Source: a virus. From it: 64,000 nt of DNA. The first letter of the stretch is position 1. The number at the start of each line of letters is the position of its first letter. The DNA lies in IMG/VR virus record IMGVR_UViG_3300036828_000667, positions 49,839-113,838 of that record; one strand, 5' to 3'. The notes under the pieces are model-generated. The model did no database searches. It was given only the letters and a program-made list of their open reading frames with translations, and was not told where the DNA came from. Shown here in pieces: positions 9,378-29,729 of the stretch. The position numbers were made by a program, and so were the translations under genes.

Positions 9378-9584
9378 ATGAGACGGTCAGATGATTTGCT
9401 GATACTTTTAATTCGAGAACACCATATACAACTATCACCAAGAACTGTGAAATCACTACTAACTAGCATAGGTCTCTTGTCCAACAACAAATATCTAAGT
9501 GCAACTCAGGTGAAAAAGTTCAGAAAACCACGGATAAGTTCTAGTTCTAAAAAAGTAGCAGTAAAAAGAGGGAAAGTAACATGA
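9378..9584 (+). CDS. Small basic hypothetical protein
   Basis: GAGG RBS, overlaps next gene. Confidence 0.5.
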   Translation: MRRSDDLLILLIREHHIQLSPRTVKSLLTSIGLLSNNKYLSATQVKKFRKPRISSSSKKVAVKRGKVT

Positions 9585-9823
9585 CGAAGCATGTAATGAA
9601 TATTCTAGATCAAACTGGCCACACTACTATCGGATGGGATGCAGGCAACGAACAGGAAATAGCTATTGCTAAAGAAGCTTTCGATAGTGCTATAAAGAAA
9701 GGATACCATGCGTTTCACGTTATTGAAGAAAAGGGTGGAGAGACTAGACGTGGAGAACGTATGACAAGATTTGATTCTGACGCAGAACGGATGATCCTGA
9801 TGCCGCAATTACAAGGAGGTTGA
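9581..9823 (+). CDS. Small protein ending in a di-glycine (..PQLQGG)
   Basis: 80 aa, C-terminal GG, coupled to the next gene. Confidence 0.75.
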   Translation: MTKHVMNILDQTGHTTIGWDAGNEQEIAIAKEAFDSAIKKGYHAFHVIEEKGGETRRGERMTRFDSDAERMILMPQLQGG

Positions 9824-9824
9824 T

Positions 9825-10508
9825 ATGATATTTGCCGCCTATCAACGATCTATAGGCATCTCCACACCTCTCCCACAGTCTGTAATTTTTACAATGGCCG
9901 ACTCTATGACAAATACCTGTAGCTCAACCTATCCAACCTATCCAGTCTGGCATAATAACATAATAGTTTTTAACGACAGTACTCGTACATATAGTGTATA
10001 TAACCCCACCACCTGTACCAACAACACGGTTGCAAGCACCTGTTTTCCTATTATACTCCAATGGCCAGATTGGCATGATCACATTTCTATGCCAAACATT
10101 ATCCAAGAAAGGATGGAGGCAGAGAACGCTAGGCTAGAACTCCAAAGACAAGCTATTGCGGAAGCTAATAGAATTGAAATGGAGAGAGCTAAGGAAAGAA
10201 GACTTAGCTCTGAGAAGGCCAAGCAGTTACTTCTAGAACACCTAACGTCTGAACAACGTGAAACAGTTGAGAAGAATGGATGGTTTGTTATCGAAGGTGG
10301 TCGATCGAAGAAACGTTACCGGATAAGATCCAGTGGTGTTACTGGTAATGTTGAGGAGATGGATGGAGAAAGAGTCATAGCCAAATATTGTTGTCACATA
10401 TCACATAGTTATCCACGCTCGGACCATCATCTCACCCAAAAGCTCATGCTAGAATGGGATGAAGAAACCTTCTTACGACTAGCTAATAAAACTGCGATAG
10501 GCTCATAG
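9825..10508 (+). CDS. Conserved hypothetical protein (coiled coil plus C-terminal YCCH/P..D domain)
   Basis: AGGAGG RBS, globular C-terminal domain. Confidence 0.75.
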   Translation: MIFAAYQRSIGISTPLPQSVIFTMADSMTNTCSSTYPTYPVWHNNIIVFNDSTRTYSVYNPTTCTNNTVASTCFPIILQWPDWHDHISMPNIIQERMEAENARLELQRQAIAEANRIEMERAKERRLSSEKAKQLLLEHLTSEQRETVEKNGWFVIEGGRSKKRYRIRSSGVTGNVEEMDGERVIAKYCCHISHSYPRSDHHLTQKLMLEWDEETFLRLANKTAIGS

Positions 10509-11810: not shown

Positions 11811-12338
11811 ATGGCAAAACACAATGAAGAAAATGATCTATGGTTCCTTAGCAAAATCGCAGATGGAACCATTTCTGTATCCGAAGACGGAGAGGTCTTC
11901 AACAACAAGACAGGTAGATATATAGGCGCTCAACAAGGAGCAGGTTACCTTAAGATTTCTATGGCAAAGAGAGTTGATGGAAAACTTGTTATTGTCCATA
12001 TGCAAATCCATAGGTTAGTATGGCTACATTTCAAAGGACCTATTCCTCAGGGACTAGAAGTCAATCACAAAGATTTAAACAAATCGAACCCACGATTGTC
12101 AAATCTAGATTTACAAACACCCAAAGGGAATGCTGAACATGCCACCTTAAATGGTGTTGACCGACGCTCAAAAACAGGAGGCCATAAAAACGCTAATGCC
12201 AAATTTACACGTGAACAAGTCGAGATGCTACGGAGACAATTCAAATCGAAAGAAACCACAGTTAAAGAAATAATGATAAACTATAGTGTTTCTAAGCCAG
12301 TTGTGTATTGGATGCTGGAAGGAAGGACCTATAAATAG
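11811..12338 (+). CDS. HNH homing endonuclease
   Basis: HRLVW..F.G.IP.GLEVNHKD.NK.N....NL. Confidence 0.9.
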   Translation: MAKHNEENDLWFLSKIADGTISVSEDGEVFNNKTGRYIGAQQGAGYLKISMAKRVDGKLVIVHMQIHRLVWLHFKGPIPQGLEVNHKDLNKSNPRLSNLDLQTPKGNAEHATLNGVDRRSKTGGHKNANAKFTREQVEMLRRQFKSKETTVKEIMINYSVSKPVVYWMLEGRTYK

Positions 12339-13571: not shown

Positions 13572-13641
13572 GTCGAACCGCTGCCTTGCTTGCCAAACCG
13601 GGCCAAGCCGGCGCGGACCAAACCTCCGCACACCGCACAAT
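13572..13641 (+). ncRNA. Pentamer-coded guide-like unit U6
   Basis: 13 periods decoding to EALLKGKGGKSTA, the peptide encoded at 13756-13794. Confidence 0.9.
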
Positions 13642-13695: not shown

Positions 13696-14337
13696 ATGCT
13701 AATTTCAGTCACGATCTCCGGAATCCGACCTTTAATCCTCGACGCGTTTTCCGAGGAAGCGTTGCTTAAGGGGAAGGGAGGAAAGAGTACAGCCCAGCCC
13801 AAGGAACTGAGTCCCTTGGATCAAGCCAAGCGTAGGTTATACTATAATGGAGATGGTACCGACGTTCCTATATTCCCAGCAGACAACCTACTCAGCTGTA
13901 TCATCGCTGCCGGGCGGTTTATCAAGGTCGGGAAAAGGCAACTAACTACTCGCGACAGTACGACAGTAACTTCATTCCTACAGATATCAGAACTATATCT
14001 TCCCATTAGGTCGATAGATGGATGGCGAGTCGACTCCAGGAGCATCGTCAACCCGTCTACAAAAGGTCGTCACATATGCTACCGTCCCATCTTTGACGAC
14101 TGGGAGTTAGATTTCACGCTCGACATCGATACGAATGAAGCGAGCGACAGCTTGGTTAGACAGTTGATTGATAGAGCAGGTAGGTTTATCGGGATCGGGG
14201 TCATGCGGCCCGAAAGGAAGCGGCAGTATGGGCAATACGTGGTGCGCTGCTGGGATTGCCGTTCAGAACATGAAGAGCTTGACAACATACCAAAACTTGC
14301 TAAGAAAACTAAGACTAGATCGAAAGAACTAGTCTAA
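13696..14337 (+). CDS. Stand-alone RAMP / Cas7-like RNA-binding protein, candidate effector of the pentamer guides
   Basis: N-terminal strand ISGIRPLIL, PIFPADNLLSCI (cf. RAMP P.IPGSSLKG), C-terminal Gly-rich loop GIGVMRPERKRQYGQYVV; AGGAG RBS. Confidence 0.75.
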   Translation: MLISVTISGIRPLILDAFSEEALLKGKGGKSTAQPKELSPLDQAKRRLYYNGDGTDVPIFPADNLLSCIIAAGRFIKVGKRQLTTRDSTTVTSFLQISELYLPIRSIDGWRVDSRSIVNPSTKGRHICYRPIFDDWELDFTLDIDTNEASDSLVRQLIDRAGRFIGIGVMRPERKRQYGQYVVRCWDCRSEHEELDNIPKLAKKTKTRSKELV

Positions 14338-14467
14338 CACTGGTTCATCGCGGACCGTACCGGAGCGTGCCATGCCCGTCCCCGCCGAGCCCGACCAAAC
14401 CAGACCCAACCTACGCGGACCCAGCCTATCCTTAGCGTAGCACACCGCACAGTTAAGGCCAAAACCA

Positions 14468-14511
14468 GAAGGAAGGAGATACGGAAATGAAACCACGCAT
14501 CTCCTTCCTTC
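14468..14511 (+). terminator. Stem-loop 3' of unit A
   Basis: GAAGGAAGGAGAT...ATCTCCTTCCTTC. Confidence 0.6.
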
Positions 14512-15110
14512 AAACCCAAGTTTCGAACAATCCATGCCACTGCAAACCGCGCCAGCCCTATGCCTACCACTGTGAACCGCTCCACACCATTCTTTTATCA
14601 ATTATCAAGTCAACACTCCGAACCAGACCCCGCCTTACCCAACAGCACCCCACCAAACCGGACCGACCCACTCCAATGTGCACCTCAGCAGACCGAAGCA
14701 CACCATACTTTATCAATTGCCTTCCCGACCCGAGCTATGCCCAACCGACCCGACCCACTCCGGGCCGCACCCCTCCCTCCCATCCCGCAGCACACCATAC
14801 TTTATTTCATTACGACTCTCCGGCCCTACGCCAACCACACCAGCCCGGAGCGTGCCATACCGCACCATACTTTTATCATTTCAATGCGCACCGTCCCTCA
14901 CCGTGCCATCTCTCACCCGACCATACCATCCCTCCCCACCTCGGCCCGGACCCCGCCGATGCAAACCACACCATACTTTATCAATTTTCAGAACCATCCC
15001 GACCGTACCAGTGCGCGCCATTCCAATGCAGCCCTCGCCTCCGCATGTCAGGCCGCCCCGACCCATGCCGCACCAAACCACACTTTCTTTATCAACTAAG
15101 GAGAACCAGC

Positions 15111-15311
15111 ATGACCACACATCGTCCCACATTCGAAGACTGGCAGCTAGACTTCACTTTGGATTATAATGAAACTGAAATAGATGAAGGTACTATACGT
15201 AAGCTAATCGAAGTAGTAGCTGGAACGCACATAGGACTTGGCTCTATGCGCCCAGAACGACATGGACCCTATGGACAGTTTAAGATCAAGGAATGGACTC
15301 CACATTCTTAG
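15111..15311 (+). CDS. 66-aa truncated paralog of the RAMP protein C-terminus
   Basis: AAGGAG RBS; RPTFEDWQLDFTLD...IGLGSMRPERHGPYGQF aligns with RPIFDDWELDFTLD...IGIGVMRPERKRQYGQY. Confidence 0.8.
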   Translation: MTTHRPTFEDWQLDFTLDYNETEIDEGTIRKLIEVVAGTHIGLGSMRPERHGPYGQFKIKEWTPHS

Positions 15312-15598
15312 TCTTATCCATCTCTGCTTACCGTAGCCCTCATCACCGCACCCGTGAGCACCGACCCATGCCTGAGCCTACCTCAGCATACCCAACCGCA
15401 GCAACCCGGTGCGAACCAAACCACACTATTTTTTATACAATTTCAACTTACCGTCCCGGCCCGAGCCAGTCCATCGTGCGCCGACCCGTCGCTCCCCATA
15501 CCGCACTATACTTTATTCATTACCAACCATGCCATACCATGCCATTCCGGAACGCTGCCCTCCGGTCCACACCACACTTTCTTTAGGAGTTTAACCAG

Positions 15599-16414: not shown

Positions 16415-16969
16415 TTAAGTAGCATCATAGGCAAACTCACCAGCCAAACGTTTGGAAGCTTCCTCATACGCCTGAACCGCCTCTTCTACTGTGTTAAAGG
16501 TACCGATCTGAACGTCTTTATACATATGTTTTATTCTAGCCTCCCATTTTCCTGTGCTTTTCTTGTACCTTACTCCCTTAAAACCACTTGTATTATTTTT
16601 GAACATAGGACGATTGTAGCAATTCTGCTGTGTCGTCGCTGGACGAAGATTAGTCCATATATTGTTACCTGGATTTAGATCCTTATGATCTATCTCATAA
16701 TTAGGCCATTCTCCTGTCACATATAACCATATAATACGATGTACTTGATACATTCTGCCATTAACTTTTACCTGTATACGTCCTCCTTTCTTAATAGAAC
16801 CCGCCGTACTTCCAATAACAATCCTCCAGTTTAACGCCTCCTTCCATGTAAGTATACCAGTTTCAGGATCATAGTTAAAAATCTGCCTAACAAACTCAGC
16901 TGTTAGACTATTGTTATAGATACGAGTCCCCATTTTTACGCTCCTGTAGTGGCAGCCTTTACTGCCCAA
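16415..16969 (-). CDS. HNH endonuclease with C-terminal AP2 domain (likely start 16933)
   Basis: YDPETG, HRIIW, IDHKD....NN...NLR, NNTSGFKGV..W.A.I. Confidence 0.9.
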   Translation of the reverse strand: MGSKGCHYRSVKMGTRIYNNSLTAEFVRQIFNYDPETGILTWKEALNWRIVIGSTAGSIKKGGRIQVKVNGRMYQVHRIIWLYVTGEWPNYEIDHKDLNPGNNIWTNLRPATTQQNCYNRPMFKNNTSGFKGVRYKKSTGKWEARIKHMYKDVQIGTFNTVEEAVQAYEEASKRLAGEFAYDAT

Positions 16970-18237: not shown

Positions 18238-18321
18238 ATTTAAACCTCCTACCTTTCACAGAACCGCTATACTTTATCCATAATCCACACTTAGTGATTT
18301 AGAAGTCAGCCAAGAGTTCTC

Positions 18322-18457
18322 TGCGTACCGACTCTTTCCGGACCGGACTGTACCACACTATACCATACCTCACCTACCCATACCTCGCCTAACCACGCCT
18401 TTGCGACCCGGAGCGTGCCTCGCCTACCCAATGCGACCCTGACCACAGCACACAATT
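18322..18457 (+). ncRNA. Pentamer-coded guide-like unit N (26 periods)
   Basis: Decoded reverse complement reads VVQSLYDTPSNVYDMYDIIVTPPKST, matching the terminase C-terminus. Confidence 0.9.
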
Positions 18458-18477
18458 ATAGGACTAAAAGACATGAG

Positions 18478-18510
18478 GTGGTGACTTGTATGGTTTGGGC
18501 AAGTCACCAC
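18478..18510. terminator. Stem-loop between unit N and the terminase stop
   Basis: GTGGTGACTTG...CAAGTCACCAC. Confidence 0.65.
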
Positions 18511-18514
18511 TTCC

Positions 18515-20440
18515 CTACGCAATTCTTTGAAACCTATCACCAAGAGACTGCAACGTATCCCTTATAGAGCCGTAAGCTTCATATACGTTGCTGGGCGTGT
18601 CGTAAAGCGACTGTACCGCATTATAAGTCGCAGCGCATAGGCTGTCCGCCATGTCGCAATGACTACCTTCTAATTGCGCCTTCACGACCTTATTATTTTC
18701 GAACCAGATGGATTCCAGTTCCTTCTTCAAGTCACGCATCATTCCAGTTTTGAGGCAATCAGTCGCGACAATGTTACTAAGAACATCATATGGTGTACGT
18801 GTCTTTTCCACGCTCAACACCTCCACAGTCTCAGCATACCCTATCGATGTAAGCTTCTGTATCAATTGTTCACTCTGATATTGGTCAGCTGTGAAAGTCT
18901 TGAACCCTAGACCATAGTAATCTCTCAAGTCTATAATGAACTCCTTGACTGCTTCCAAATTGATACGGTTTGGACTTGTGATCCTTAGAACCAAATCAGC
19001 GACGTATATCACCTTGCCTGTCCGGCTAAGCTCCTTGTGGACTACGGATAGCCCAGCTGAACTCACAGCAGCACCGTCCCAAGCTCCGTATCTAGTAGCC
19101 GCTGGATATCTTTTCCATCTGTATCCTTCAGGCGTAGCTATAAACAAGTCTCTCGGTAGCTGCTCTCGTAGCGGGGCTGGGATAGGCTGATTGGCATTAC
19201 CAAGAGGTGCCGAAACATAAAGAATCGGGCAGAGGTTTGGATCTTCGACTTTGCTGAGGTCATCGAAAGGCACCTCCTGACCCATGCTCGCTTGACCAGC
19301 TAGATTCATCAGGGATTGCTCTGTCCTTCTTTCAAAGTCACGTTGATATCGCTTAGGGACTTTCACTAGTGTACAAGACGGTGGAAGATCAAACTTGTCA
19401 TTCTCAGCTAGTACACTTTCTCTAGGTTCAAGTACCCTTGATGGGTGTCTTTGAGTACCACGCATACACCAGAAGTGACCATCATGTTTAAGCGCATCAG
19501 GATACTTGGTATCCCATATGGAGTACTGACTGACTTTACCAGCTGGATCATTTCGAAGCTGGGCGATGTGAGTAGCCATAACCCCCTTCTCATGAGCAAT
19601 AGAAGACAATAGAGTCATTAGCGTATAGCGGACTCCCAAGAACCTGGACCTTATGCGTTCAAAGATGTTGTCATATAGTGTAAATGCCTTGTCTACGAGA
19701 CCCTTGCTACCAATTCGAAATTCTGCCTCGTCGAGCATACCTCCAAACACATCTTCACCCAGAACATGTCGATCCTGTGATCCAGCGTAAATCTTTACGT
19801 TATTAGGAAACTCAAATCCTTCTCCATTGAATACCCATGGTGTAAGTTTCTCTAATTCAGGATCGTTCTCAAATTCAAGGAAGTCCCTTAAATGATTCAC
19901 CTTCCTGTAGTCCTTACAGGCTGAGAGCAATATCCCAACACGTTCAATCAGAGTGCTCTGGGCCTTCTCCTTAGTAACAGTAAACAGCTGTAGGATCATC
20001 GGCTTTGATGGGCCGGTACCCATACTCAGCTGAGGATTCCTGAAAGAGTTTATCCTGTAAACATTATACAATTGTGCTATTAAACCAGCAGTGCTCTTAC
20101 CAGTGCCAATAGCACCAGTTACTCCCCATCTACAGATAATAGATTTAGGAGCAAATATCTCAATCAAATCCTTCTTCCAGTTAGGAAACAAGATTAGTGC
20201 ATCATCCCCTATATAATCAGGAGTTAGAAACTCTTCTATAGTAGGTATTGGTCTCTTGAAACACATAGTAGTCAAGTCAGGGACTTCTTTAAAATGACCT
20301 AGCATTGTCAACGCTAGGCCAAGACGTTTCTTCTCAGGTGGAATCTCCCTAAGTCGAGGGTTTCTGGCGTCCATATCCAACATAAACTGAGCAAACTCGC
20401 TAGACTCAGCAATTCTGTCAAGCTCCACAGGATCTATCAT
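18515..20440 (-). CDS. terL: Terminase large subunit
   Basis: Walker A GAIGTGKS, Walker B GMLDEAE, C-terminal RNase H-like acidic residues (WD, ADQYQS, D.AD). Confidence 0.85.
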   Translation of the reverse strand: MIDPVELDRIAESSEFAQFMLDMDARNPRLREIPPEKKRLGLALTMLGHFKEVPDLTTMCFKRPIPTIEEFLTPDYIGDDALILFPNWKKDLIEIFAPKSIICRWGVTGAIGTGKSTAGLIAQLYNVYRINSFRNPQLSMGTGPSKPMILQLFTVTKEKAQSTLIERVGILLSACKDYRKVNHLRDFLEFENDPELEKLTPWVFNGEGFEFPNNVKIYAGSQDRHVLGEDVFGGMLDEAEFRIGSKGLVDKAFTLYDNIFERIRSRFLGVRYTLMTLLSSIAHEKGVMATHIAQLRNDPAGKVSQYSIWDTKYPDALKHDGHFWCMRGTQRHPSRVLEPRESVLAENDKFDLPPSCTLVKVPKRYQRDFERRTEQSLMNLAGQASMGQEVPFDDLSKVEDPNLCPILYVSAPLGNANQPIPAPLREQLPRDLFIATPEGYRWKRYPAATRYGAWDGAAVSSAGLSVVHKELSRTGKVIYVADLVLRITSPNRINLEAVKEFIIDLRDYYGLGFKTFTADQYQSEQLIQKLTSIGYAETVEVLSVEKTRTPYDVLSNIVATDCLKTGMMRDLKKELESIWFENNKVVKAQLEGSHCDMADSLCAATYNAVQSLYDTPSNVYEAYGSIRDTLQSLGDRFQRIA

Positions 20441-20946
20441 TTATCAGACTCATCTTCGTTTGGCTTCAAATCAATAGTTTTCCTCTCCTTAAAATAAGCT
20501 GCAATATGCTCTAGAGACTCCAAGAGTTCACCTGCATCCTTCACAGGATTTCCTCCAGGACTAATACCACCTTGTCCCATTATGCTACCCAAGTTCTGTT
20601 GCACAGTGAATAGTGGTCCGCTCTTCGCCCCAGATCCACCTGCAATCAATTCCAAGTCTCTAGCACCCGCCCCAGAAAGGTTTTCAACCAATCTCATCAA
20701 CATATTATCAGACATGTTCTCTAGTCTACCTATCAGAATGTCCAAAGCTTTGAGTCTGGTATCCTCTGCCTTGACCGCTGAATGATACCTCGTCATAAGA
20801 AACTGATCTCTAATAGCTTTGATGAAAACACCCCTATCTCTACTCTTATCATATAGCTCTAGCTCTCGCTTTAGGTCTAATGCGACCTCTAAAGGATGCC
20901 TAGATACCGCTCTAAAAGGTCTCTTAGCTTTCCTGGTTTGTGTCAT
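20437..20946 (-). CDS. Hypothetical protein (possible terminase small subunit)
   Basis: Position directly upstream of terL. Confidence 0.5.
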   Translation of the reverse strand: MTQTRKAKRPFRAVSRHPLEVALDLKRELELYDKSRDRGVFIKAIRDQFLMTRYHSAVKAEDTRLKALDILIGRLENMSDNMLMRLVENLSGAGARDLELIAGGSGAKSGPLFTVQQNLGSIMGQGGISPGGNPVKDAGELLESLEHIAAYFKERKTIDLKPNEDESDK

Positions 20947-21350
20947 CGGACTTCTTCTTGTTTCTCTCGTGCGTTCTCATGCTGCTTAAGGCTTAGAACA
21001 AAATCACGTTCCCCTGGAGACAACTTAGATAGCCAATTCTCCATCCTAATCTTAAGCGATCGGATGTAGTTGCCGTCCACGTTGTATTTCAACGCTACCC
21101 AATCCCAACTCTTTCCTTCAACAGCGACGTGGTAACAAACCAAGGCTACCATAAGGTCCTTGTTGAATTCCTCAGCAGTTGGAATACGTATCGTTTCTCC
21201 ACCAAAAGCCTTGATGAAATTAAATATCTGTTTAGGAGATAGAAGGTATAGTATCTCTGGGACAAGACTGGTCTGACTGGCGCACAGTATCGATAGCGCC
21301 ATGTAAACTAAGCTCGATCCAGGATCAATTTGATCATAGTCTCTAGCCAT
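20943..21350 (-). CDS. Hypothetical protein, Mor-like GG.T.RIP motif
   Basis: FGGETIRIP followed by an HTH-like region. Confidence 0.55.
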   Translation of the reverse strand: MARDYDQIDPGSSLVYMALSILCASQTSLVPEILYLLSPKQIFNFIKAFGGETIRIPTAEEFNKDLMVALVCYHVAVEGKSWDWVALKYNVDGNYIRSLKIRMENWLSKLSPGERDFVLSLKQHENAREKQEEVR

Positions 21351-22003
21351 TACAGGTACTCAGCCACATCAGCTGTATAGAACTTCTCGCTCTCCACCAG
21401 CGACAACATTATTCGTAGTGCTACACGATCTCGAAAGCCCAAGCTGTTAAACAAGGCACTTCTGTCTTCCAAGAACAGTGACACGATCATTGGCCATAAT
21501 AGGTAATTGGCCTTATACTTAAACCTAGGAGAAGCACTTATCTTAGAATATATCTTACCAACAAAAAATGCGTATCTATCATTCCTCTTCAAAGTATCGT
21601 AGGGCGTCGTAAATTCCACAAATAAGGCATCTTCATCGTATTCATCCAGAGACACAACATTCTTACGAAACTCGTAAAAATCTGATATTACTTTACCCAC
21701 CCTACTTTTAAGTACAAATCTATAATAAGGATAGAAATTATCATAACCATAGATAAAGTGTGCAGGCTGTCTTTGAATACTTAGCAACACATCTTCGGCT
21801 ATTTGATTCACAGCCTCATATAATAGATAATCATCTACATTGCTGTACTCTTTGTAAACTGTCCTCATACCAATATCAATCAATATATGAAATATCTCAC
21901 TCAAGTCCTTTTGCTGATTATTATCAGCATAACTAACTATTCTCTCATAAATCATCTTTCCCAAGTCATAATATCCAACTGTGGTCAAGCGTCCTGTGGT
22001 CAA
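21350..22003 (-). CDS. Hypothetical protein (sigma-factor-like helices possible)
   Basis: 217-aa ORF coupled on both sides. Confidence 0.6.
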   Translation of the reverse strand: MTTGRLTTVGYYDLGKMIYERIVSYADNNQQKDLSEIFHILIDIGMRTVYKEYSNVDDYLLYEAVNQIAEDVLLSIQRQPAHFIYGYDNFYPYYRFVLKSRVGKVISDFYEFRKNVVSLDEYDEDALFVEFTTPYDTLKRNDRYAFFVGKIYSKISASPRFKYKANYLLWPMIVSLFLEDRSALFNSLGFRDRVALRIMLSLVESEKFYTADVAEYL

Positions 22004-22008
22004 GCGTC
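21979..22008. repeat. 15-bp tandem duplication CTGTGGTCAAGCGTC x2
   Basis: Exact direct repeat spanning a stop/start junction. Confidence 0.9.
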
Positions 22009-22266
22009 AGTCTCCCGGAGGAGCTTGTCAACAAGATGCTTTCTATCCAACATTTTCTTAATCTGAGTATTCGGACTCTCTATGATAAGGTGACCCTCGC
22101 CATTCATCTTTATCTTTCCGATAAGAGTTTGAGATTCCCCCTTGATGCCGAGGTCACGTAGCACCATAGCCAATTGGATATCAACAATCCGCGTTGTAAT
22201 AGATACGGACGTAGAACTAATCCTAGCAAGCTCCGCTACGTATTGACCTTCCTCATCCGAGTTGAT
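22000..22266 (-). CDS. Uncalled 88-aa ORF with a probable ATC start
   Basis: GAGGAGG-N5-ATC; open to a TGA overlapping the TTG of the next gene; fills the operon gap. Confidence 0.55.
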   Translation of the reverse strand: MNSDEEGQYVAELARISSTSVSITTRIVDIQLAMVLRDLGIKGESQTLIGKIKMNGEGHLIIESPNTQIKKMLDRKHLVDKLLRETDA

Positions 22267-22292
22267 AGTAACCTCCTCATGCTATTTTCACA

Positions 22293-22577
22293 TCATTCTT
22301 TTGGCCCTATACCCACACCAACTGTCTGATCTCCAAGTTTTTGCATTACCCGCCAATGAAACTCGTTGACAATTTCCGCATCGGTGAAATCAGATAAACC
22401 AGGAACTGGATGCGAAGTATTATTGGGGATACATTCATTACAACAATAAGGACCAAGATTGTTACTATATATAACATGGCAGTATTTTTGACCATTAGCG
22501 TCTTGGCGTTCAAGTGACCGACCACAGCTGATACAGTAACTATTCATATTATCATCTTTCTTTTTTGTACAACCCAT
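22293..22577 (-). CDS. Zinc-binding hypothetical protein
   Basis: CISC...CCNEC. Confidence 0.55.
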   Translation of the reverse strand: MGCTKKKDDNMNSYCISCGRSLERQDANGQKYCHVIYSNNLGPYCCNECIPNNTSHPVPGLSDFTDAEIVNEFHWRVMQKLGDQTVGVGIGPKE

Positions 22578-23226
22578 CCAAAAGAGCTTCCCGCTCTTCC
22601 TGTGTCATACGATAATTCTCACGCAAATGCCAAGCCTTGGCATAACGACTGAGTACACTACGTTTCATACTAGGGGATGAATACTTTGCCAAAATCTCAG
22701 TAACAGGGTCAACGTCCTCAACTTGATAATCTTCTAGCGGTGCTTCGCTTGTCATAACACGTGGTTTTTTAACAGAAACTCCTTTTTCCAGGACTTCCGT
22801 AAGGATTTTAACAAATGGATCATCTTCATTATCACATTCATACCAGCGTAACAACTCGATCGGTGTAGATGGAGGACAGACGACCCAACCACAGGCGTGA
22901 CGGTTCCTCGAATCAAGATGGGGACGACCACTCAATCCAAGGGCAGTCCAAACGTGTTGTGGAATGTCACGACCCCTTGCACGACAAGGCGTAACAGAAA
23001 GACCTTCTTTATTACAACGCTTCTCGTCAATACAACAAAAACGCTGCATTTTATTTCTAGTATTCCCCCCTGTAGCTTTAGGAATATGACGACACCACCC
23101 AAATGCCATGTCTTCTGAGACATAGGTAGATCCACCATTTTCCATCAGCTTACGAATATGTAGCGATAAAGACGCAGTAATCTTCTTGTCAGTTATACTC
23201 GCCATATCTTCTTCTGTAATAGCCAT
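22552..23226 (-). CDS. Cys-containing hypothetical protein
   Basis: 224-aa coupled ORF. Confidence 0.7.
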   Translation of the reverse strand: MAITEEDMASITDKKITASLSLHIRKLMENGGSTYVSEDMAFGWCRHIPKATGGNTRNKMQRFCCIDEKRCNKEGLSVTPCRARGRDIPQHVWTALGLSGRPHLDSRNRHACGWVVCPPSTPIELLRWYECDNEDDPFVKILTEVLEKGVSVKKPRVMTSEAPLEDYQVEDVDPVTEILAKYSSPSMKRSVLSRYAKAWHLRENYRMTQEEREALLDGLYKKER

Positions 23227-23768
23227 TAGGCTTCTGTCTTCTTATCCTTCCAATTTTTACCAATACGAATACTACGAATCGTATGTGATGAAACACCAAA
23301 TTCTTCACCTAACCTCGTATCAAATCCATGATACCATTTTCTAGACCTGATATCATCGACCTGAGACTGGGTAAGTATGGCTTGACTATGACGCTCACCA
23401 CGACCATCAGTTCGGTGCCTAGTTTTATCTTCATAGTTTTCTTTTGGAGTGCCCCATTTAATATTTTCAGGCCAACGATTATCAGAACGATTTCCATTAA
23501 GATGTCGACATTCCTGCCCGGAAGGCCGTGGCCCAACAAACGCGTTAAGAACCAGACGATGAACTTTCACTACTGTTTCCCTTTTTCTAACCGTCATATA
23601 TCCTTTTCGATCAGTTGTTTGTTTTAAAAGTTCTATTTGTAAAGCAATTCTCCTTCCCTTTCGTTTAGCTCCGGGCAAGGCTCTAACACGACCACGATTT
23701 GATATTTGATGAAAAGGCCAATTCTCTACATCCACATCTTTCCAGACTTCACCATCATCACTGTTCAT
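23226..23768 (-). CDS. NUMOD4-HNH homing endonuclease
   Basis: EVWKD...ISNRGRVR, VHRLVL.AFVG, CRHLNGNRSDN. Confidence 0.9.
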   Translation of the reverse strand: MNSDDGEVWKDVDVENWPFHQISNRGRVRALPGAKRKGRRIALQIELLKQTTDRKGYMTVRKRETVVKVHRLVLNAFVGPRPSGQECRHLNGNRSDNRWPENIKWGTPKENYEDKTRHRTDGRGERHSQAILTQSQVDDIRSRKWYHGFDTRLGEEFGVSSHTIRSIRIGKNWKDKKTEA

Positions 23769-23773
23769 TTGTT

Positions 23774-25120
23774 TTACCCTCCTAGTTTATCTGCTGCTTT
23801 ATCACGAAAACTAATTCCCTCTAGCCTAAAATCACCTACCTCCTTATGAGCGTTGTGATGCTGTTTCAATATAACTTCATACTCATTAGGAGATATCTCA
23901 GATATCCTTGAATGAGAATCGTCAAATCTTACTTTGGTAGTTACAGCAGACTCTCCCCTTCTTACCAAAGGAAGATGCATCGTCCCTATACTTTTCAACT
24001 TCTCATTACGACCACCTGTAATCATAATGTCTACTACGTGTTGTTTTCTGCTAGACTCTGCTGCAGAATCAAATTCCAGAACTTCCTTATCCCAGAAACC
24101 AATTTTAGGCTGGCACCCAATCATTACTACTGGACCTTCCTGTTGGCCAAATCCTTTAAATGTAGAATACATAACACCTCCACTCTCATACATCCCAGCG
24201 TCTTGTGGAGGCCTAACGTTTGAGTCATAGTCTATTACCAACATGTCGAATGGAAATTTCTTTCTATAGTTTCTGGCATAGGAAACGATCTCATTACAGT
24301 CCAAGGCAAAAGCTGGGAAGGCAGCCACCCGCCAGTTCTCCAGCCATGACTCACACCTCTTTTTGTAATGCTCAGGAGCATTGACCACATTGGAAATAAG
24401 ATCCCCAGTCACACAACTCATAAATTTACAGAGACCATCGAACTCAGTGAAGTCCCCAAAGAACATATGGACTACTTTAAACCCCTGATCAGCAGCAGCT
24501 GCTGCTTCTTGAACCATGTAAGTCGACTTACCCCCCTTTGGTTTCATTACAACCATGACCAAATCACCATTCTTATAACCCTTATATAACAATGACGAAT
24601 TAATCAACCCTAGTGAACTCTTTATAACCCTCCCTCCAGCCGGAAGATCCTTCGCTTTAAGATGCTCTATTATTCCTTCCTGTAAAGGATTTACAAACGG
24701 ATCGGTTAGTATGGTGAATGACGACGCTTTAGAAAAGTACCCTTCTGCTGATCCAAGATCACCCTTGACGTATAGGTCGACACCTCTCAGAAATATTCTG
24801 TTCTTGATGAAATTTCCTATAAGACGAGTTACATGCTCAACGTCCTCGCTCTTGATAACCTTGTGACTATTAAATAGGTCCTCGACAATTTCCCAGTCAT
24901 GACTATACATGTCTTTATAAGTATGCTTCATATGTAATTGGAGAACACTGAGATCGATATTATTGTCTCTAAAGGGATTACTAATCAGAGCCGAAACTAG
25001 CTGAGAATGGATAGTCCTTTGAAACATCCACGGTTCTAAAAATGAATGGCATAATTGTCTAATTTGGAGGTCAAACAACATCTTGAGGACCATAGGTTCT
25101 ATTTCAGTATCGTTAGCCAT
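23774..25120 (-). CDS. dnaB: Replicative DnaB-like helicase
   Basis: KPKGGKST, LVIDYD, Q motif, AESSRKQHVVD. Confidence 0.85.
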   Translation of the reverse strand: MANDTEIEPMVLKMLFDLQIRQLCHSFLEPWMFQRTIHSQLVSALISNPFRDNNIDLSVLQLHMKHTYKDMYSHDWEIVEDLFNSHKVIKSEDVEHVTRLIGNFIKNRIFLRGVDLYVKGDLGSAEGYFSKASSFTILTDPFVNPLQEGIIEHLKAKDLPAGGRVIKSSLGLINSSLLYKGYKNGDLVMVVMKPKGGKSTYMVQEAAAAADQGFKVVHMFFGDFTEFDGLCKFMSCVTGDLISNVVNAPEHYKKRCESWLENWRVAAFPAFALDCNEIVSYARNYRKKFPFDMLVIDYDSNVRPPQDAGMYESGGVMYSTFKGFGQQEGPVVMIGCQPKIGFWDKEVLEFDSAAESSRKQHVVDIMITGGRNEKLKSIGTMHLPLVRRGESAVTTKVRFDDSHSRISEISPNEYEVILKQHHNAHKEVGDFRLEGISFRDKAADKLGG

Positions 25121-25613
25121 TTGACCCCCTGAGCTTATAGAACTTTATGTATACCGCGATGTAATGCGGAGGACTTTGTATCTCTCTCGGTAGGATACAT
25201 TTGCTTTGAGAGTTAAACACTCCAAAAGCATCGTCGATATCTAGTCCTGGAAATATACCATCTTCAATAACCTTCCATAAGTTCGTTAGGTCAAGCAATC
25301 TTAGCTTAGTCCCATCGCCAATGATCCAATCATGTTTGCTAGAACAAAAGGCAGTATGACAAGCGTAGCAATATGTATCTTTAGGAGCTTTTATTTTGAG
25401 ATCTTCTATCTGATCTTTAATATGGCTTTGAAGAAGAGTAACTCTCTCGTCCTTCCGAATCCAAACTCTACCATTCATACTTTGGGCTTTGTACATATTA
25501 TTAGAACTAAAATAATAAGGGATGGATATACAAAAACAGTATGTAGAAATTTGCTTTAGGTCAGTTGCATTAAGAATGCAGTTTTGCGGAACAGATCCTC
25601 CTTCTATAGCCAT
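25113..25613 (-). CDS. RusA-like Holliday junction resolvase
   Basis: S.NN.Y and DL.N..K...D.......DD. Confidence 0.7.
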   Translation of the reverse strand: MAIEGGSVPQNCILNATDLKQISTYCFCISIPYYFSSNNMYKAQSMNGRVWIRKDERVTLLQSHIKDQIEDLKIKAPKDTYCYACHTAFCSSKHDWIIGDGTKLRLLDLTNLWKVIEDGIFPGLDIDDAFGVFNSQSKCILPREIQSPPHYIAVYIKFYKLRGSNG

Positions 25614-25840
25614 GTCTCGACGATAACAGGATCATCATCAGGAGACCTGGGTATCATATTAAGTCCAGAAGGAAGCAACCTATGTAGTTCTTCTATAGTA
25701 TCAGCTACAAACATCTCATTAGTAGGAGTTAACTTACCATCACCAACTAGCCATAACCTAGCGACAAACTGGTCAGGTTGATCCTTAGGATGATCATAGA
25801 TCGTCCAAATTCGAAGTAAGTCTTCGTCATTCTTTGCCAT
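25604..25840 (-). CDS. Conserved small phage protein (IYDHP.D.P...D.P.IVETW)
   Basis: Recognisable motif, coupled. Confidence 0.75.
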   Translation of the reverse strand: MAKNDEDLLRIWTIYDHPKDQPDQFVARLWLVGDGKLTPTNEMFVADTIEELHRLLPSGLNMIPRSPDDDPVIVETWL

Positions 25841-26165
25841 GGTCTGGACCTAGCAAGCTTATGATATCTTCTTCCGTAGGAGCTACGTTTACTATCGGGA
25901 CAGATTTAATAGGTCTTTTCGGATCAGGCAATAGACTACTTTGAACTCTAGCATTCACGGCTTCCTGAATAGTTATACCACCAGAAAACGCCGGATACAT
26001 GATGGCTATCAGGTTCAAATCATCAGCAGTTTCTACAAACAGATTGCTATTACATAAGCTCTCCGGATGATGACCCAGCCCAGAGACCATAAGCGTATCC
26101 GCGTAGATATAATATCGTTCTAGAATCCTTGCCATAACAGCTGCTTGACTAGAAGAAATCTTCAT
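25827..26165 (-). CDS. Hypothetical protein
   Basis: GGAG RBS. Confidence 0.65.
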   Translation of the reverse strand: MKISSSQAAVMARILERYYIYADTLMVSGLGHHPESLCNSNLFVETADDLNLIAIMYPAFSGGITIQEAVNARVQSSLLPDPKRPIKSVPIVNVAPTEEDIISLLGPDHGKE

Positions 26166-26195
26166 ATATTAGTCTCTCCGTACGACAGCTCTGTT

Positions 26196-29100
26196 TCATG
26201 TATAAGGCTCTCTTTGTACGTTACTGAAGTCAAGTCTCATTTTTCCAGTCACCAACTTACGTGACTGGCCAAGCGATAAGGCAAAGGCTCCACGAGCTAT
26301 GAATAGCTCTCCCATTGATCGCACACTCTCTACCTCTTCGTCAACAGTAATATAAGTCTTGACACCGTATGCGGATAGCCTACTATCCAAGGCTTCTACT
26401 GCGGTCTGCTTACTTTCATGAAACTCAGAAGATATAATAGGTCCATCAACTACAGCGTTCTTTAACTCTACCATCTGGTCTCCAGACACACCAATCTCAT
26501 ACTCTGCTTTAATCGGTATGTTGAATTCTTCAACTACTTTGTCTATAACGTATCTGGGGAGAGCAGAGATGATTTTTGGCAAGTCAGCGATCTGTACGTC
26601 CAAATCAGCCGCGTCATGAGTAAAGCAATCAATCCTTGCAGACATGTCTTGGTCTAGAGTATACTCACTCATATAGTAGATACCTAGCCCAGCAAGAACA
26701 GAAGAAGCATTTTGGATCGGGTAATTCTGGGCATTCCTAAAAGACTCTGATATAAACATGCGAAGCTTCTTATCTACCTCTCTATTAGAACTAAGTTTGA
26801 CCTTTCTGGAGAACACGTTTTCCAACAGCTGATCTTTACTCCACTGGCTTAGAGATAGAGCTTCATGCGGTAGTCCTACGTCGTAAATAGGGTCTCCTAA
26901 GGGAGTCAAGATGTAGCCGTTTTCTAGTAAGAAGCTGTGCTGTGCTTTTATCCATATCTCTATGTTAGGAAACGTGCTGAAAAGCTGGGTGAATATATAC
27001 TTAGCCAATTGGATATTACCATTTAAAAATTTAATTGCAAAACTTGGTGGACTATCTCCATATAGAACAGCAAACACAGCGCTCTTGGCATAACGACGCT
27101 CTTGCTTTGTAATCTGCTTTTCTGGTTTACCCCAAATCTTGCTGGCAATGAACAGATGAATGTCTGCACCTTCACGGAACTTCTGAAGCAAGGCTTCGTC
27201 CTTGGCTATAGTCGCCAGAACACGGATTTCACTCTGACTCAAGTCCCAATGGAGTCTAACACCGTCAATAAATCTAGATACCATAAGGTCAATAAGTTCT
27301 CCTGCGGGCACGGTATGGTCCCCACTGCGGAACCTTTTTGTTACCGCAGTACACACTCCGAAGGAAGTCTCTTTGATCCAAATTTTGTCTGTTGGCGTCT
27401 TCTCTGTCCAACCTGGATGTCTCAGAGCCCGAACGTTTCTCTTATCTACTAGCGTTGCATTACCTCTCCCAACGTCTCCCCAAATGTAAGTCGAATAAAC
27501 CTTCATTACCTTCTTGTATAATCGGAACAGAAATACGATACGAAACTCATCTACCCAAGTTGATTTGTCGTCTACATTAACACCACCAATATGCCAAAAA
27601 GCATTGTAAATATCCTCAATAACTTCTGAGGCCATACCCGGCAATGTCCACCCGTAAAATTCGATAAACACTTTTATTTCTGGAGGAGTAATCTTTATGT
27701 TATTATCATCTTTCCAAAGTTCAGATGAATTTGCAGGATGGTTTTGAACCTTGTTTCCAATACACTCAGATGCCTCTACTAGAGTATCAACCACCTTGAA
27801 CCGTTCTGCTGAGTCAGATTCCGCTAGCACTTGTTCAAGTGTAGGACCTAGTACAGGGTATTCCTTAAAACATTCATCCTTGCTATTCTGATACTCCTTG
27901 AATACAGTAAAAAGCATCATAAGGAATTTCAGTCTAGGCGTTACGATAAGCTTTGAAAACCTATCCCTCGTATCCTTGTGATTGGACCTTGGATTGAAAA
28001 ACTTCGTCAGATTGTCTAGCTCAGTAGTTGTCTGGATTTCAAGAACGTCCTGAGTATTATCAATTACGGGGACAAAGGTCTGATCGGTACTAAGAGACGA
28101 CGGCAATATCTTTTGAAATCTAGGGATCATTAGTATCGATCTAAGGGAGTCTATCGCTGTATCAAGATATACCTTATCAAGCTTTGTAGCTAACTCGTCA
28201 TTCCAGGCAATTCCAGAGGCCTCCAACTCGAACCCGAGCTTGCCTAGATTATTATAGATTTCAGATACCCGGACTAGACCAAGTTTCTGGACTTCCTCTC
28301 CCAGATGGTCTTTCAACCGATCCGTAAATTCTATATCCCTAATAGCATACGGAGCTATGATCTCAACAGGTACATCAGTGAACTTGTCCTCAAAATCCTT
28401 GTCAGTAGACCGCTGTATGATCAGAGTGAAAAACCGTTTGCAAAATTCAGTATATCTTTCTCTATTGTAATACTTCTTAGCTAATCTATTGATTTGGACG
28501 AAGTCAGTTCGAAGGTTTACGATCCTATCAGTAGGCTTTTTAACTGCATCAAACCATGCAATCAGAGTATCAATAGAGTTACATTTACTGTCTTGAATAA
28601 AAATAACCTCTTCCCTAATCCTGCCCTTGTAGGTTGGCTTTACGTACTTGATGATCTTCTGGAGAAGGCTGTTCCACTCATCGACTTCAGCATCCCATGT
28701 CTGTATACCTAGTCGAGTGCTAGCGATCTCTTTCAAACCGCCGCTACGACCTAGACACCTGTTCATCATCATTACATCAAGAACGTCTCTAATATATACT
28801 CCGAAATAACTTAGGCTAGCGGCACATTCATATTGGAGATTGAATACTATCAGTTTCTTTGATAGAAGCCATACTCCAATCTTGGCTTTCAGTTTATCAG
28901 GAATGACGAATTCTCCAGGTGTTCGCCAAAAATTATAGAGCATAACGTAAACACAGGTCTTAGTCGTCCTGCCCTTAAGAGCAAGGCCACCGACAAAGTA
29001 ATTATAGTGATACGTATTGAGGCCTGATGCTTCATAGTCCAATACCACTTCAGTATCGTTTTTGAAAATTTCTTCAACTCTAGACCATTCTAGTACGTCA

Positions 29101-29729
29101 ATCACCTCATACTTAAGTATATTGGATACAGTTTCTTTCTTAAAGCCACTCCAAGCTCTTTTAAGGTCGCCAATCAACGTCTCGAAGGACTCAGAAGTCC
29201 CTCGGGTCAGAATGCCCCAACCACTGACTCTCAGCACGAAGCTTGGATGGTAGGTGACAAAGACTGGAATGTCAAGATAGCTATAGGTGTGGACTCTAGC
29301 CGCCCCTACAGACGTGTCTATATCAAAAGCCGACATAGCAGATTTTCCAGTCAATAAAATCACTTTAGGCCTTGTCTTCTCTATATCCTTCCGTAGAAAT
29401 ACAGAGTACTTTTGAATCTCATGATGCTCTGGTGTCCTATCTTTAATTCTGGACCCTTCTCTAACTATAGGACGATATGGAATTACGTTGAAGTATCGTA
29501 TCTTAGTAGGATCAATATCACCAGTCTTTGCAGCTTCAACAATCGCCCGGTCCAGTGTTTGTCCCGCAGGACCTACGAACGGCGTACCCTGTTCAACTTC
29601 TTCTTTACCAGGACCTTCTCCTGCTATATATAAATGTACATCAGTATAACAACCTTTTGGCCCTACAAACAGTGGATCAAGTCCAGGACCTGGGTTTACT
29701 AAGCTGTCAGTCAATTCTAAACTAGACAT
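26196..29729 (-). CDS. polA: Family A DNA polymerase with N-terminal uracil-DNA glycosylase domain
   Basis: UDG GEGPG..E...G.PFVG.AG and TYHPS; exonuclease LDYE; polymerase motifs DLSQSEIR, R..AK...F..LYG, HD. Confidence 0.92.
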   Translation of the reverse strand: MSSLELTDSLVNPGPGLDPLFVGPKGCYTDVHLYIAGEGPGKEEVEQGTPFVGPAGQTLDRAIVEAAKTGDIDPTKIRYFNVIPYRPIVREGSRIKDRTPEHHEIQKYSVFLRKDIEKTRPKVILLTGKSAMSAFDIDTSVGAARVHTYSYLDIPVFVTYHPSFVLRVSGWGILTRGTSESFETLIGDLKRAWSGFKKETVSNILKYEVIDVLEWSRVEEIFKNDTEVVLDYEASGLNTYHYNYFVGGLALKGRTTKTCVYVMLYNFWRTPGEFVIPDKLKAKIGVWLLSKKLIVFNLQYECAASLSYFGVYIRDVLDVMMMNRCLGRSGGLKEIASTRLGIQTWDAEVDEWNSLLQKIIKYVKPTYKGRIREEVIFIQDSKCNSIDTLIAWFDAVKKPTDRIVNLRTDFVQINRLAKKYYNRERYTEFCKRFFTLIIQRSTDKDFEDKFTDVPVEIIAPYAIRDIEFTDRLKDHLGEEVQKLGLVRVSEIYNNLGKLGFELEASGIAWNDELATKLDKVYLDTAIDSLRSILMIPRFQKILPSSLSTDQTFVPVIDNTQDVLEIQTTTELDNLTKFFNPRSNHKDTRDRFSKLIVTPRLKFLMMLFTVFKEYQNSKDECFKEYPVLGPTLEQVLAESDSAERFKVVDTLVEASECIGNKVQNHPANSSELWKDDNNIKITPPEIKVFIEFYGWTLPGMASEVIEDIYNAFWHIGGVNVDDKSTWVDEFRIVFLFRLYKKVMKVYSTYIWGDVGRGNATLVDKRNVRALRHPGWTEKTPTDKIWIKETSFGVCTAVTKRFRSGDHTVPAGELIDLMVSRFIDGVRLHWDLSQSEIRVLATIAKDEALLQKFREGADIHLFIASKIWGKPEKQITKQERRYAKSAVFAVLYGDSPPSFAIKFLNGNIQLAKYIFTQLFSTFPNIEIWIKAQHSFLLENGYILTPLGDPIYDVGLPHEALSLSQWSKDQLLENVFSRKVKLSSNREVDKKLRMFISESFRNAQNYPIQNASSVLAGLGIYYMSEYTLDQDMSARIDCFTHDAADLDVQIADLPKIISALPRYVIDKVVEEFNIPIKAEYEIGVSGDQMVELKNAVVDGPIISSEFHESKQTAVEALDSRLSAYGVKTYITVDEEVESVRSMGELFIARGAFALSLGQSRKLVTGKMRLDFSNVQREPYT

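What the first reader, a model, noticed from the sequence alone, without database searches (positions are those of the whole stretch)
18322..18616. Unit N targets the terminase tail on the opposite strand, which points to dsDNA recognition
Decoded N, reverse-complemented, is gtt gtt cag tca ttg tac gac act ccg tca aac gtt tac gat atg tat gat att att gtt act cct cca aag tct aca, a stop-free frame (VVQSLYDTPSNVYDMYDIIVTPPKST). Resident terL at 18581-18616 encodes VQSLYDTPSNVY with 8 of 12 codons silently different, then diverges, so the guide preserves another phage's terminase tail. N is antisense to its mRNA while U4, U6 and A are sense, so mRNA pairing cannot explain all four. In every case the base before CC falls on the wobble position, hinting that it is read loosely. 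Caveat: I searched in that phase, so this last point has ascertainment bias.
Basis: partly seen in the sequence, partly recalled or inferred. Interest (0 to 1): 0.9.

Follow-up and report, generated by a model that had tools for sequence, protein, structure and literature searches.

The report
Phage VIPR guide RNA aimed at terminase
Unit N is a guide-RNA gene of a phage VIPR system (a CRISPR-like RNA-guided DNA binder first described in 2026 preprints).

Summary
At 18323-18452 there are 26 phase-locked pentamers, (C/G)C plus three variable bases. Reverse-complemented, it reads VVQSLYDTPSNVY..., identical over 12 residues to the resident large terminase tail at 18581-18616, with 8 of 12 codons silently different.

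An unbiased scan of the whole 113.8-kb virus record finds that site as the unique best hit: 22/26 read bases, against 17 for the next best and 20 for the best shuffle.

The element is a vrRNA of a VIPR system, with a Cas7-like Vipr gene at 13696-14337. The 2026 preprints already show a pentamer-to-codon code, wobble alignment, targets on both strands, dsDNA binding and aim at rival phages. This scan has also noted guides beside recoded alleles on other DNA.

Three things differ from the published systems:
- The repeats are C-rich on the strand that carries the promoters, the terminators and vipr.
- The two G-reading Vipr residues are replaced.
- The third variable base is informative (33/34 codons).

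No terminase carrying the full predicted tail was found. The RNA strand is not measured.

The parts
18255..18284 (+). Promoter-like site TTCACA-18-CATAAT upstream of unit N, in the C-rich sense
   Evidence: 10 of 12 consensus matches; a consensus match only. Other stand-alone units carry TTGAC[AT]-N16-18-TA 35-43 nt upstream in the same sense.
18323..18452 (+). Unit N: 26 pentamers, (C/G)C plus three variable bases; candidate vrRNA guide region
18388..18452 (+). The 13 handle-proximal pentamers of N, the part that matches the terminase tail
   Evidence: 22/26 read bases at 18582-18620, a unique best hit in the genome.
18443..18457 (+). 3' handle-like end CCACA GCACA CAATT; the family consensus is (A/C/T)A CCGCA CA(A/T)
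   Evidence: a related end closes nearly all 29 units.
18475..18513 (.). 15-bp hairpin between N and the terminase stop codon; possible bidirectional terminator and 3' cap of the RNA
   Evidence: -25.1 kcal/mol, z = -2.8. Similar hairpins directly follow other units.
18515..20440 (-). Large terminase gene (641 aa)
   Evidence: Translation. No Pfam, PHROG or PDB sequence hit. The predicted C-terminal domain matches large-terminase nucleases: HK97, G20c, T4 gp17 and D6E, Foldseek E 2e-5 to 1e-3, target TM 0.64.
18543..18620 (-). Terminase tail codons aligned with decoded N. 18582-18620 is the well-matched half.
13696..14337 (+). vipr: Cas7/Csm3-like RAMP protein (213 aa), the presumed partner of N
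   Evidence: Model pLDDT 82; Foldseek top hits are Csm3/Cas7 at E about 1e-6. It hits phrog_4652. It is weakly similar to proteins of Felixounavirus, mycobacteriophages and Gordonia phage that are flanked by GGY-NN repeats.
14350..15576 (+). Two vrRNA arrays downstream of vipr (units at 14350-15082 and 15326-15576), same pentamer type as N
13578..13637 (+). Single unit upstream of vipr; it decodes to vipr residues 21-32
   Evidence: 20/24 read bases, 12/12 residues.

Best explanation
Unit N is a stand-alone guide-RNA (vrRNA) gene of this soil phage's VIPR system.

The RNA is most likely the C-rich + strand. It would start behind the promoter-like site at 18255-18284 and end at the hairpin 18475-18513. 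Protomers of the Cas7-like Vipr protein (13696-14337) would coat it, one per pentamer.

The constant CC is held by protein. The variable bases are presented so that five RNA bases span three DNA bases. The guide therefore reads a coding sequence codon by codon on double-stranded DNA.

N spells the last 25 or so codons of a large terminase as carried by related phages. During co-infection the filament would bind the 3' end of the rival's terminase gene and block its expression, as shown for other VIPR systems.

The phage's own terminase, 60 nt away, escapes. It differs at a third of the read bases: two six-fold codon switches plus a diverged last 12 codons.

What is shown here: the pentamer code, the codon-phased match, its significance, the RAMP fold of Vipr and the terminase fold. 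What is inferred: which strand is the RNA, binding, silencing, and the existence of the rival allele.
For: - Decoding and the 12/12 residue match.
- Unique, significant genome-wide hit.
- Twenty-nine units of one family, with a shared 3' end, lie in the record.
- The Vipr model is Csm3/Cas7-like and it has about 95 homologues.
- Homologous proteins in Felixounavirus, mycobacteriophage, Gordonia and Pseudomonas phages sit beside GGY-NN arrays.
- The published mechanism covers dsDNA binding, one skipped target base per codon, wobble alignment, rival phages and rival vipr genes as targets, and lower self-match.
- All 6 significant in-genome matches lie 59-294 nt from their unit and match at about 80% of read bases, with the same peptide.
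- At the two resident mismatches in the matched half, sister phages carry guide-like codons: TTG in L007 and TCC in L006.
- Sister terminases share the decoded first 13 residues, and P0004 shares the register beyond them.
- C-rich strand as RNA: TTGAC[AT]-N16-18-TA lies upstream of 11/29 units in that sense against 1/29 in the other, with a background of 1.5%. Hairpins, some followed by a T-run, come directly after the handle. The repeats are on the vipr strand in three related phages.
- The G-loop reads V-M here. Four GG-type systems have D/E plus W/Y at the positions that read G1 and G2 in the SUSP1 structure.
Against: - No sequence carrying the full decoded tail was found. The collections searched were INPHARED, IMG/VR, the 5.8-billion-protein set and the own record.
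- The two sister terminase tails with DNA in hand match N no better than the resident does (31-32/50 against 33/50).
- The promoter-proximal half of N has three degenerate constant dinucleotides and no significant match.
- N lacks the TTGACA-type promoter of the other stand-alone units.
- The handle-proximal 13 pentamers match the resident at 85%. That is above the 80% cut-off the preprints use to call targets, so self-avoidance rests on the other half of the guide.
- No vap gene was identified.
- The published motif GGY/NN is the exact reverse complement of the motif here. By homology that argues for the G-rich strand as the RNA.
- Neither the RNA strand nor expression was measured.
Confidence: 0.75

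Rival explanations
1. N acts on the phage's own terminase gene. The Vipr-N filament binds the resident 3' end (18582-18620) to time or damp late gene expression, or to stop convergent transcription. It would then not be a weapon against rivals.
For: The handle-proximal 13 pentamers match the resident at 22/26 (85%) and 17 pentamers at 27/34 (79%), at or near the published 80% target cut-off. The guide lies only 60 nt from the site. All six significant matches in this genome are to neighbouring resident genes. No better foreign target was found.
Against: A self-regulator should match perfectly. Instead every mismatch inside the identical peptide is a six-fold codon switch, and the third bases agree in only 8/25 codons although they track the amino acid. 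The whole guide matches at 66%. The preprints report self-match scores lower than non-self scores in other VIPR phages.
Confidence: 0.12
2. N is a decaying relic: a former guide, or two fused guides, that is no longer expressed or loaded.
For: There are three degenerate constant dinucleotides in the promoter-proximal half. The handle reads GCACA instead of the CCGCA consensus. There is no TTGACA-type promoter. A handle-like remnant CCGCTATACTTTATCC lies just upstream at 18266-18281. At 26 pentamers it is longer than the 9-16 reported for type II vrRNAs.
Against: The decoded frame is stop-free over 25 codons and codon-phased. A promoter-like site and a strong hairpin flank it. The preprint notes frequent internal degeneracy in functional vrRNAs.
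Confidence: 0.08
3. N works as an ordinary antisense RNA against terminase mRNA, or the C-rich periodic tract is a structural or termination element (i-motif, G-quadruplex or Rho-binding site) with no guide role.
For: In the C-rich sense N is antisense to the terminase mRNA and convergent with it. The tract is C-rich and G-poor, like Rho-binding sites (own knowledge).
Against: Contiguous pairing is impossible because the match appears only after two of every five bases are removed (one search found no direct match). Twenty-eight sister units have the same build, most of them in sense orientation to their matched genes. A structural element would not encode a neighbour's peptide in phase.
Confidence: 0.03

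Closest known systems
Type II VIPR systems of Escherichia phage SUSP1 and the Pseudomonas fulva prophage (bioRxiv 10.64898/2026.04.26.720920, 10.64898/2026.04.26.720927, 10.64898/2026.10.15.759431)
   Same: A small Cas7-like Vipr gene has one guide upstream and an array downstream, plus solo guides. The repeats have a 5-nt period with constant and variable parts and are followed by a conserved 3' end with a hairpin. Five guide bases span three target bases. Read bases fall on codon positions 1-2. Targets lie in both orientations. Guides are aimed at rival phages and at rival vipr genes.
   Different: The constant part here is CC (97% C at position 2, C/G at position 1) on the strand that carries vipr, promoters and terminators, not GGY. 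G-loop residues D177/W178 of SUSP1 are V/M here. The third variable base is informative rather than a fixed pyrimidine. No vap gene was recognised. No pseudoknot tail was seen. There are up to 26 repeats. The target here is a terminase tail, which the preprints do not mention.
Non-canonical vrRNAs listed in the first preprint's methods (NNNGG, YNNNG, NNNNG repeats)
   Same: If the G-rich strand were the RNA, these units would read NNNG(G/C), a repeat with three variable bases.
   Different: The preprint gives no targeting rule for those types. Here the invariant base would be the first G, not the last, and the transcription signals point to the opposite strand.
Free-standing HNH homing endonuclease genes next to phage terminase genes (example in sister contig L007)
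   Same: L007 has an HNH gene inserted exactly after the terminase stop codon, at the same site as N. A selfish element there sits beside the gene end it would attack in naive relatives, next to a diverged resident allele.
   Different: N is an RNA guide for a DNA-binding filament. No nuclease is linked to it, and neither homing nor gene conversion has been shown.
Class 1 CRISPR Cas7 backbone filaments (Cascade, Csm)
   Same: The protomer has the RAMP fold. One protomer binds per repeat of the guide, and bases are flipped out periodically.
   Different: There is no CRISPR repeat-spacer array, no cas1/cas2 and no other cas genes. The period is 5 rather than 6. The guide is genetically hard-wired and the system is phage-borne.

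Membership tests
VIPR system (Vipr + vrRNA) | A Vipr protein is encoded in the element: a minimal RAMP with an RRM core, G-loop and thumb | tested here: met
   The model of the 13696-14337 product has pLDDT 82, and Foldseek top hits are Csm3/Cas7 chains (E about 1e-6). A YRP thumb arginine and a G.G..RP loop align with the Felixounavirus and mycobacteriophage proteins.
VIPR system (Vipr + vrRNA) | Guides are tandem 5-nt repeats with a constant part and a hypervariable part | tested here: met
   There are 29 units and 397 pentamers. Position 2 is C in 97% and position 1 is C/G in 98%. The three remaining positions vary.
VIPR system (Vipr + vrRNA) | The constant part of the RNA is GGY | tested here: inconclusive
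   GG(Y-biased) is on the strand opposite to vipr, the promoters and the terminators. The G-reading residues D177/W178 are V/M. The RNA strand was not measured.
VIPR system (Vipr + vrRNA) | The repeat tract is followed by a conserved, structured 3' tail | tested here: inconclusive
   A conserved CCGCACA-type end closes nearly every unit. A hairpin follows directly in many units, N included. The hairpin sequences differ and no pseudoknot was shown.
VIPR system (Vipr + vrRNA) | Five guide bases per three target bases, with the unread base on the wobble position | tested here: met
   6/6 significant matches are in that register. Stop depletion occurs only in the two wobble-phased frames. One departure: the third base is informative (33/34).
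VIPR system (Vipr + vrRNA) | Natural targets lie on rival mobile elements, with a weaker match to self | tested here: inconclusive
   No foreign sequence matches N better than the resident does. The resident match is 66% over the whole guide but 85% over 13 pentamers.
VIPR system (Vipr + vrRNA) | The ribonucleoprotein binds double-stranded DNA and silences transcription | not testable with these tools
   Only indirect evidence: guides occur in both orientations.
VIPR system (Vipr + vrRNA) | An accessory vap gene lies beside vipr (typical, not universal) | tested here: not met
   The array starts 13 nt after the vipr stop. No vap-like ORF lies between them. The neighbouring ORFs were not searched for vap families.
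CRISPR-Cas | Identical direct repeats separated by unique spacers, plus adaptation genes | tested here: not met
   The repeat search gives only pentamer-phased families and no repeat-spacer array. The ORF survey of 12.3-18 kb shows no cas1/cas2-like gene.

The most novel reading that the evidence does not exclude
This Vipr clade would use a mirror-image guide. The RNA would be C-rich, 5'-CC-NNN-3' repeats closed by CCGCACA and a hairpin. The protein has swapped its two guanine-reading loop residues (D/E-W/Y to V-M). All three variable bases would be matched to the target, so the guide is a literal codon-by-codon copy of a rival gene.

The guide genes sit within 300 nt of the phage's own diverged allele. 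N occupies the very site where a sister phage carries an HNH homing endonuclease. That pattern suggests guide-plus-immune-allele cassettes that spread between related phages by recombination, like RNA-guided homing elements.
Probability: 0.4. Interest if true: 0.7.

Novelty: new variant of a known kind. Interest (0 to 1): 0.42.

Why it matters
The specific claim (targets on both strands, hence dsDNA recognition, with a wobble-phased code) adds nothing beyond the 2026 VIPR preprints.

The locus is still useful to people who work on VIPR, for four reasons:
- It extends natural targets to an essential packaging gene of sister phages in soil.
- It gives a sequence-only case that some Vipr clades read a C-rich repeat, with matching changes at the two base-reading loop residues.
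- It suggests that in this clade the 'skipped' base is specified. That would change how targets are predicted and how such guides are programmed.
- Guides sitting beside diverged resident alleles, at a site used by a homing endonuclease in a sister phage, give a testable model for how guides and immunity travel together.

Tried and rejected
- **RNA evidence.** No RNA holder was listed.
- The DNA of the closest sister terminases (P0003, P0004, P0007, P0008) could not be fetched.
- **Exact read-base pattern scans** of IMG/VR for the decoded target found nothing, either for the full length or for 14 codons. The own record had no hit with up to 3 mismatches.
- **Phage collection.** tblastn of the decoded peptide and blastn of the terminase region against the phage collection gave no match.
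- **Related-locus scans** gave only 60% relatives in IMG/VR and two 80% relatives in JGI metagenomes.
- **Chimeric query.** A 40-residue query (resident helix plus decoded tail) found only known sister proteins.
- **N as two fused units.** I considered this because CCACACTATAC in the middle looks like a handle. I rejected it as the main reading. The decoded II codons explain that string, and P0004's tail stays in register with the decoded second half.
- **TTGACA motif as the end of a 40-nt 3' tail of a G-rich RNA.** Rejected. The spacing to TA is fixed at 16-18 nt, as in a promoter, and I saw no shared fold by eye (inference).
- **'Maximal recoding' of resident genes.** Third bases differ in 19/20 codons for the unit at 14350. 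Pooled over six units the agreement is 25/96, close to saturation, so no claim is made.
- **Scan of all 29 units against the fetched foreign loci** (32 kb) gave no near-perfect target.
- **Terminase sequence searches.** Pfam, PHROGs and PDB sequence searches did not name the terminase. Only the fold search did.
Full report
**What is there.** The window is the right-hand 64 kb of a 113,838-bp IMG/VR virus record from soil. No DNA relative exists in the phage collection.

At 18323-18452 the + strand is a run of 26 pentamers. Each has a constant dinucleotide (CC 18 times, GC 5, and TC/CT/CT once each) followed by three variable bases. The run ends in CCACA GCACA CAATT.

The same build occurs 29 times in the record. 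It occurs once just upstream of the gene at 13696-14337. It forms two arrays just downstream of that gene. The rest are single or paired units on either strand. Position 2 of the pentamer is C in 97% of 397 pentamers, and position 1 is C or G in 98%.

**The observation.** Its reverse complement is open and reads VVQSLYDTPSNVYDMYDIIVTPPKS.

The resident gene 18515-20440 (-) ends ...AVQSLYDTPSNVYEAYGSIRDTLQSLGDRFQRIA. The 12 residues at 18581-18616 are identical to the decoded string. Four codons are the same and eight differ silently, including Leu TTG/CTT and Ser TCA/AGC.

I repeated the search without choosing a phase. The guide was slid over both strands of the whole record and only triplet positions 1-2 were scored.
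- The 13 pentamers nearest the handle score 22/26 at 18582-18620. The next best site anywhere scores 17 and the best of 100 shuffled guides scores 20.
- With 17 pentamers the scores are 27/34, 22 and 24.
- The other half of N has no significant match. The whole guide agrees with the resident at 33/50 read bases.

**Is the gene a terminase?** Pfam, PHROGs and PDB sequence searches are blank, and the neighbours upstream are replication genes.

The model is poor overall (pLDDT 62) but good for residues 430-620 or so. Its Foldseek hits are large terminases throughout: HK97, G20c nuclease (target TM 0.64), T4 gp17, D6E, P22 and Sf6. The protein has Walker A and Walker B-like motifs (own reading), and two homologues carry inteins. 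I accept it as the large terminase. N's footprint starts just after the last nuclease-domain helix.

**What the system is.** A literature search led to three 2026 preprints on VIPR systems. They describe the following:
- A phage-borne minimal RAMP protein, Vipr, coats a vrRNA made of GGY/NN pentamers.
- GGY is sequestered, and NN pairs with DNA while one target base per repeat is skipped.
- The skipped base lies on wobble positions.
- Targets occur on both strands.
- The complex binds dsDNA as an R-loop triplex and silences transcription.
- Natural targets are satellites, rival phages and rival vipr genes.
- Self-matches are weaker than non-self matches.

The 213-aa product of 13696-14337 fits this description.
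- The AlphaFold model has pLDDT 82, and the top structural matches are Csm3/Cas7.
- It has about 95 metagenomic homologues.
- It hits a PHROG of unknown function.
- It shows weak similarity to proteins of Felixounavirus, mycobacteriophage, Gordonia and Pseudomonas phages. In the four loci I fetched, those genes are flanked by GGY-NN runs on the gene's strand.

N is therefore a solo vrRNA gene of a VIPR system.

Six units match a gene in their own genome above the shuffled null. Every one of those matches lies 59-294 nt from the unit, at about 80% of read bases and with the same peptide. In five the C-rich decoded strand is the coding sense, and in N it is the antisense.

A target-independent test gives the same picture. 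Stops are depleted only in the two frames that put the third variable base on the wobble position (8 and 7 stops against 20-37). Twenty-two units are open in the sense frame, and five more, N among them, only in the antisense frame.

So whichever strand is the RNA, some guides cannot pair with mRNA. This supports DNA recognition, but it repeats what the preprints show by experiment.

**Where this locus departs from the published systems.**

(1) Strand.
- The pentamers are C-rich on the vipr strand here and in two phages whose Vipr is 58-62% identical.
- TTGAC[AT]-N16-18-TA lies 35-43 nt upstream of 11 of 29 units in the C-rich sense, against 1 of 29 in the other sense. The background is 1.5%.
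- N has TTCACA-18-CATAAT.
- Strong hairpins, several with a T-run, follow the handle directly in the C-rich sense.
- In the SUSP1 structure, G1 and G2 are read by loop residues D177 and W178. Four GG-type proteins have D/E plus W/Y at those positions, whereas this clade has V-M, which is nearly invariant in 32 sequences.
- I therefore think the C-rich strand is the RNA, at about 80%. It is unmeasured, and the motif is the exact reverse complement of GGY/NN, which argues the other way.

(2) Third base.
- In codons where the first two bases match the resident and the box is split, the guide's third base gives the resident's amino acid in 33 of 34 cases. The shuffle mean is 19.7, the maximum 29, and p<=2e-4.
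- Shuffling third bases doubles the number of stops (16.2 against 8, p=0.0005).
- In four-fold boxes the third base does not follow the resident.
- The base therefore tracks the protein of the true target, not the resident DNA. In this clade it is probably specified rather than skipped.

(3) Linkage. Guides lie beside their own phage's diverged allele.

**The target.**
- Sister terminases at 78-89% identity share AVQSLYDTPSN[VI]YE.[FY]G.[IV]R.TL. P0004's YESYGIIRTTLES keeps register with the decoded YDMYDIIVTPPKS.
- For the two sisters whose DNA I could fetch, N matches no better than it matches the resident (31-32/50). At the resident's two read-base mismatches they carry guide-like TTG or TCC.
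- No collection holds the full decoded tail.
- The rival allele is therefore inferred, not found.

In one sister (L007) an HNH homing endonuclease gene is inserted exactly after the terminase stop, at the site N occupies here. The phage also carries several paralogues of that HNH gene.

**Verdict.** N is a new member of the VIPR guide class, within a clade that looks like a new variant: C-rich repeats, altered reading residues and an informative third base. Earlier notes of this scan describe guides beside recoded alleles, and arrays antisense to vipr, on other DNA.

Noticed in passing
window 15114-15311 (+): A 65-aa ORF with a ribosome-binding site, between the two arrays, encodes only the C-terminal half of a Vipr-like protein (...FEDWQLDFTLD...GLGSMRPERHGPYGQF). 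The guide at 14350-14449 matches it at 28/40 read bases as well as matching the resident vipr at 32/40. It could be a vipr remnant or a decoy.
   Followed up: partly
window 13578-13637 and 14350-14449 against vipr 13759-13794 and 14191-14250: The two guides flanking vipr decode to vipr's own residues 21-32 (12/12) and to its G-loop (16/20). All read-base mismatches inside the identical peptide are Leu/Ser/Arg six-fold switches. For the G-loop guide the third base differs in 19 of 20 codons, the exception being ATG.
   Followed up: partly
locus L007 1167-1680: A sister phage has an HNH homing endonuclease gene inserted exactly between the terminase stop codon and the intergenic sequence that a second sister (L006) has directly after the stop. 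This is the site where unit N sits in this phage.
   Followed up: partly
window 16415-16969 (-), 11811-12338 (+), 23370-23732, 36739-37092, 45791-46276: Several HNH homing-endonuclease genes or paralogues lie in the window (phrog_99 hit; tblastx to the L007 HNH). Some lie inside the repeat families at 23385-23564, 36847-36894 and 45923-46108. Two terminase homologues elsewhere carry inteins.
   Followed up: partly
window 9581-10499 (+) against loci L001 and L008: In the 60% relatives the genes that follow the terminase on the same strand are homologous to window 9581-10499, which here lies 8 kb away on the opposite strand. A rearrangement breakpoint therefore lies right after the terminase. 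The VIPR locus occupies the convergence zone at 13-18.5 kb.
   Followed up: no
window 18266-18281 (+): CCGCTATACTTTATCC, just upstream of N, resembles the 3' tail of the array units (CCGCACTATACTTTATTC). It is possibly the stump of a lost unit.
   Followed up: no
window 18515-20440 (-) and neighbours 20437-29729: The large terminase has no Pfam or PHROG hit. It sits next to replication genes (DnaB-like helicase, DNA polymerase) rather than head genes.
   Followed up: partly
window 30881-31115 (+): Three tandem copies of a 76-81-nt unit at 67-78% identity lie inside ORF 30688-31329 (-). This is probably a repeated protein module.
   Followed up: no
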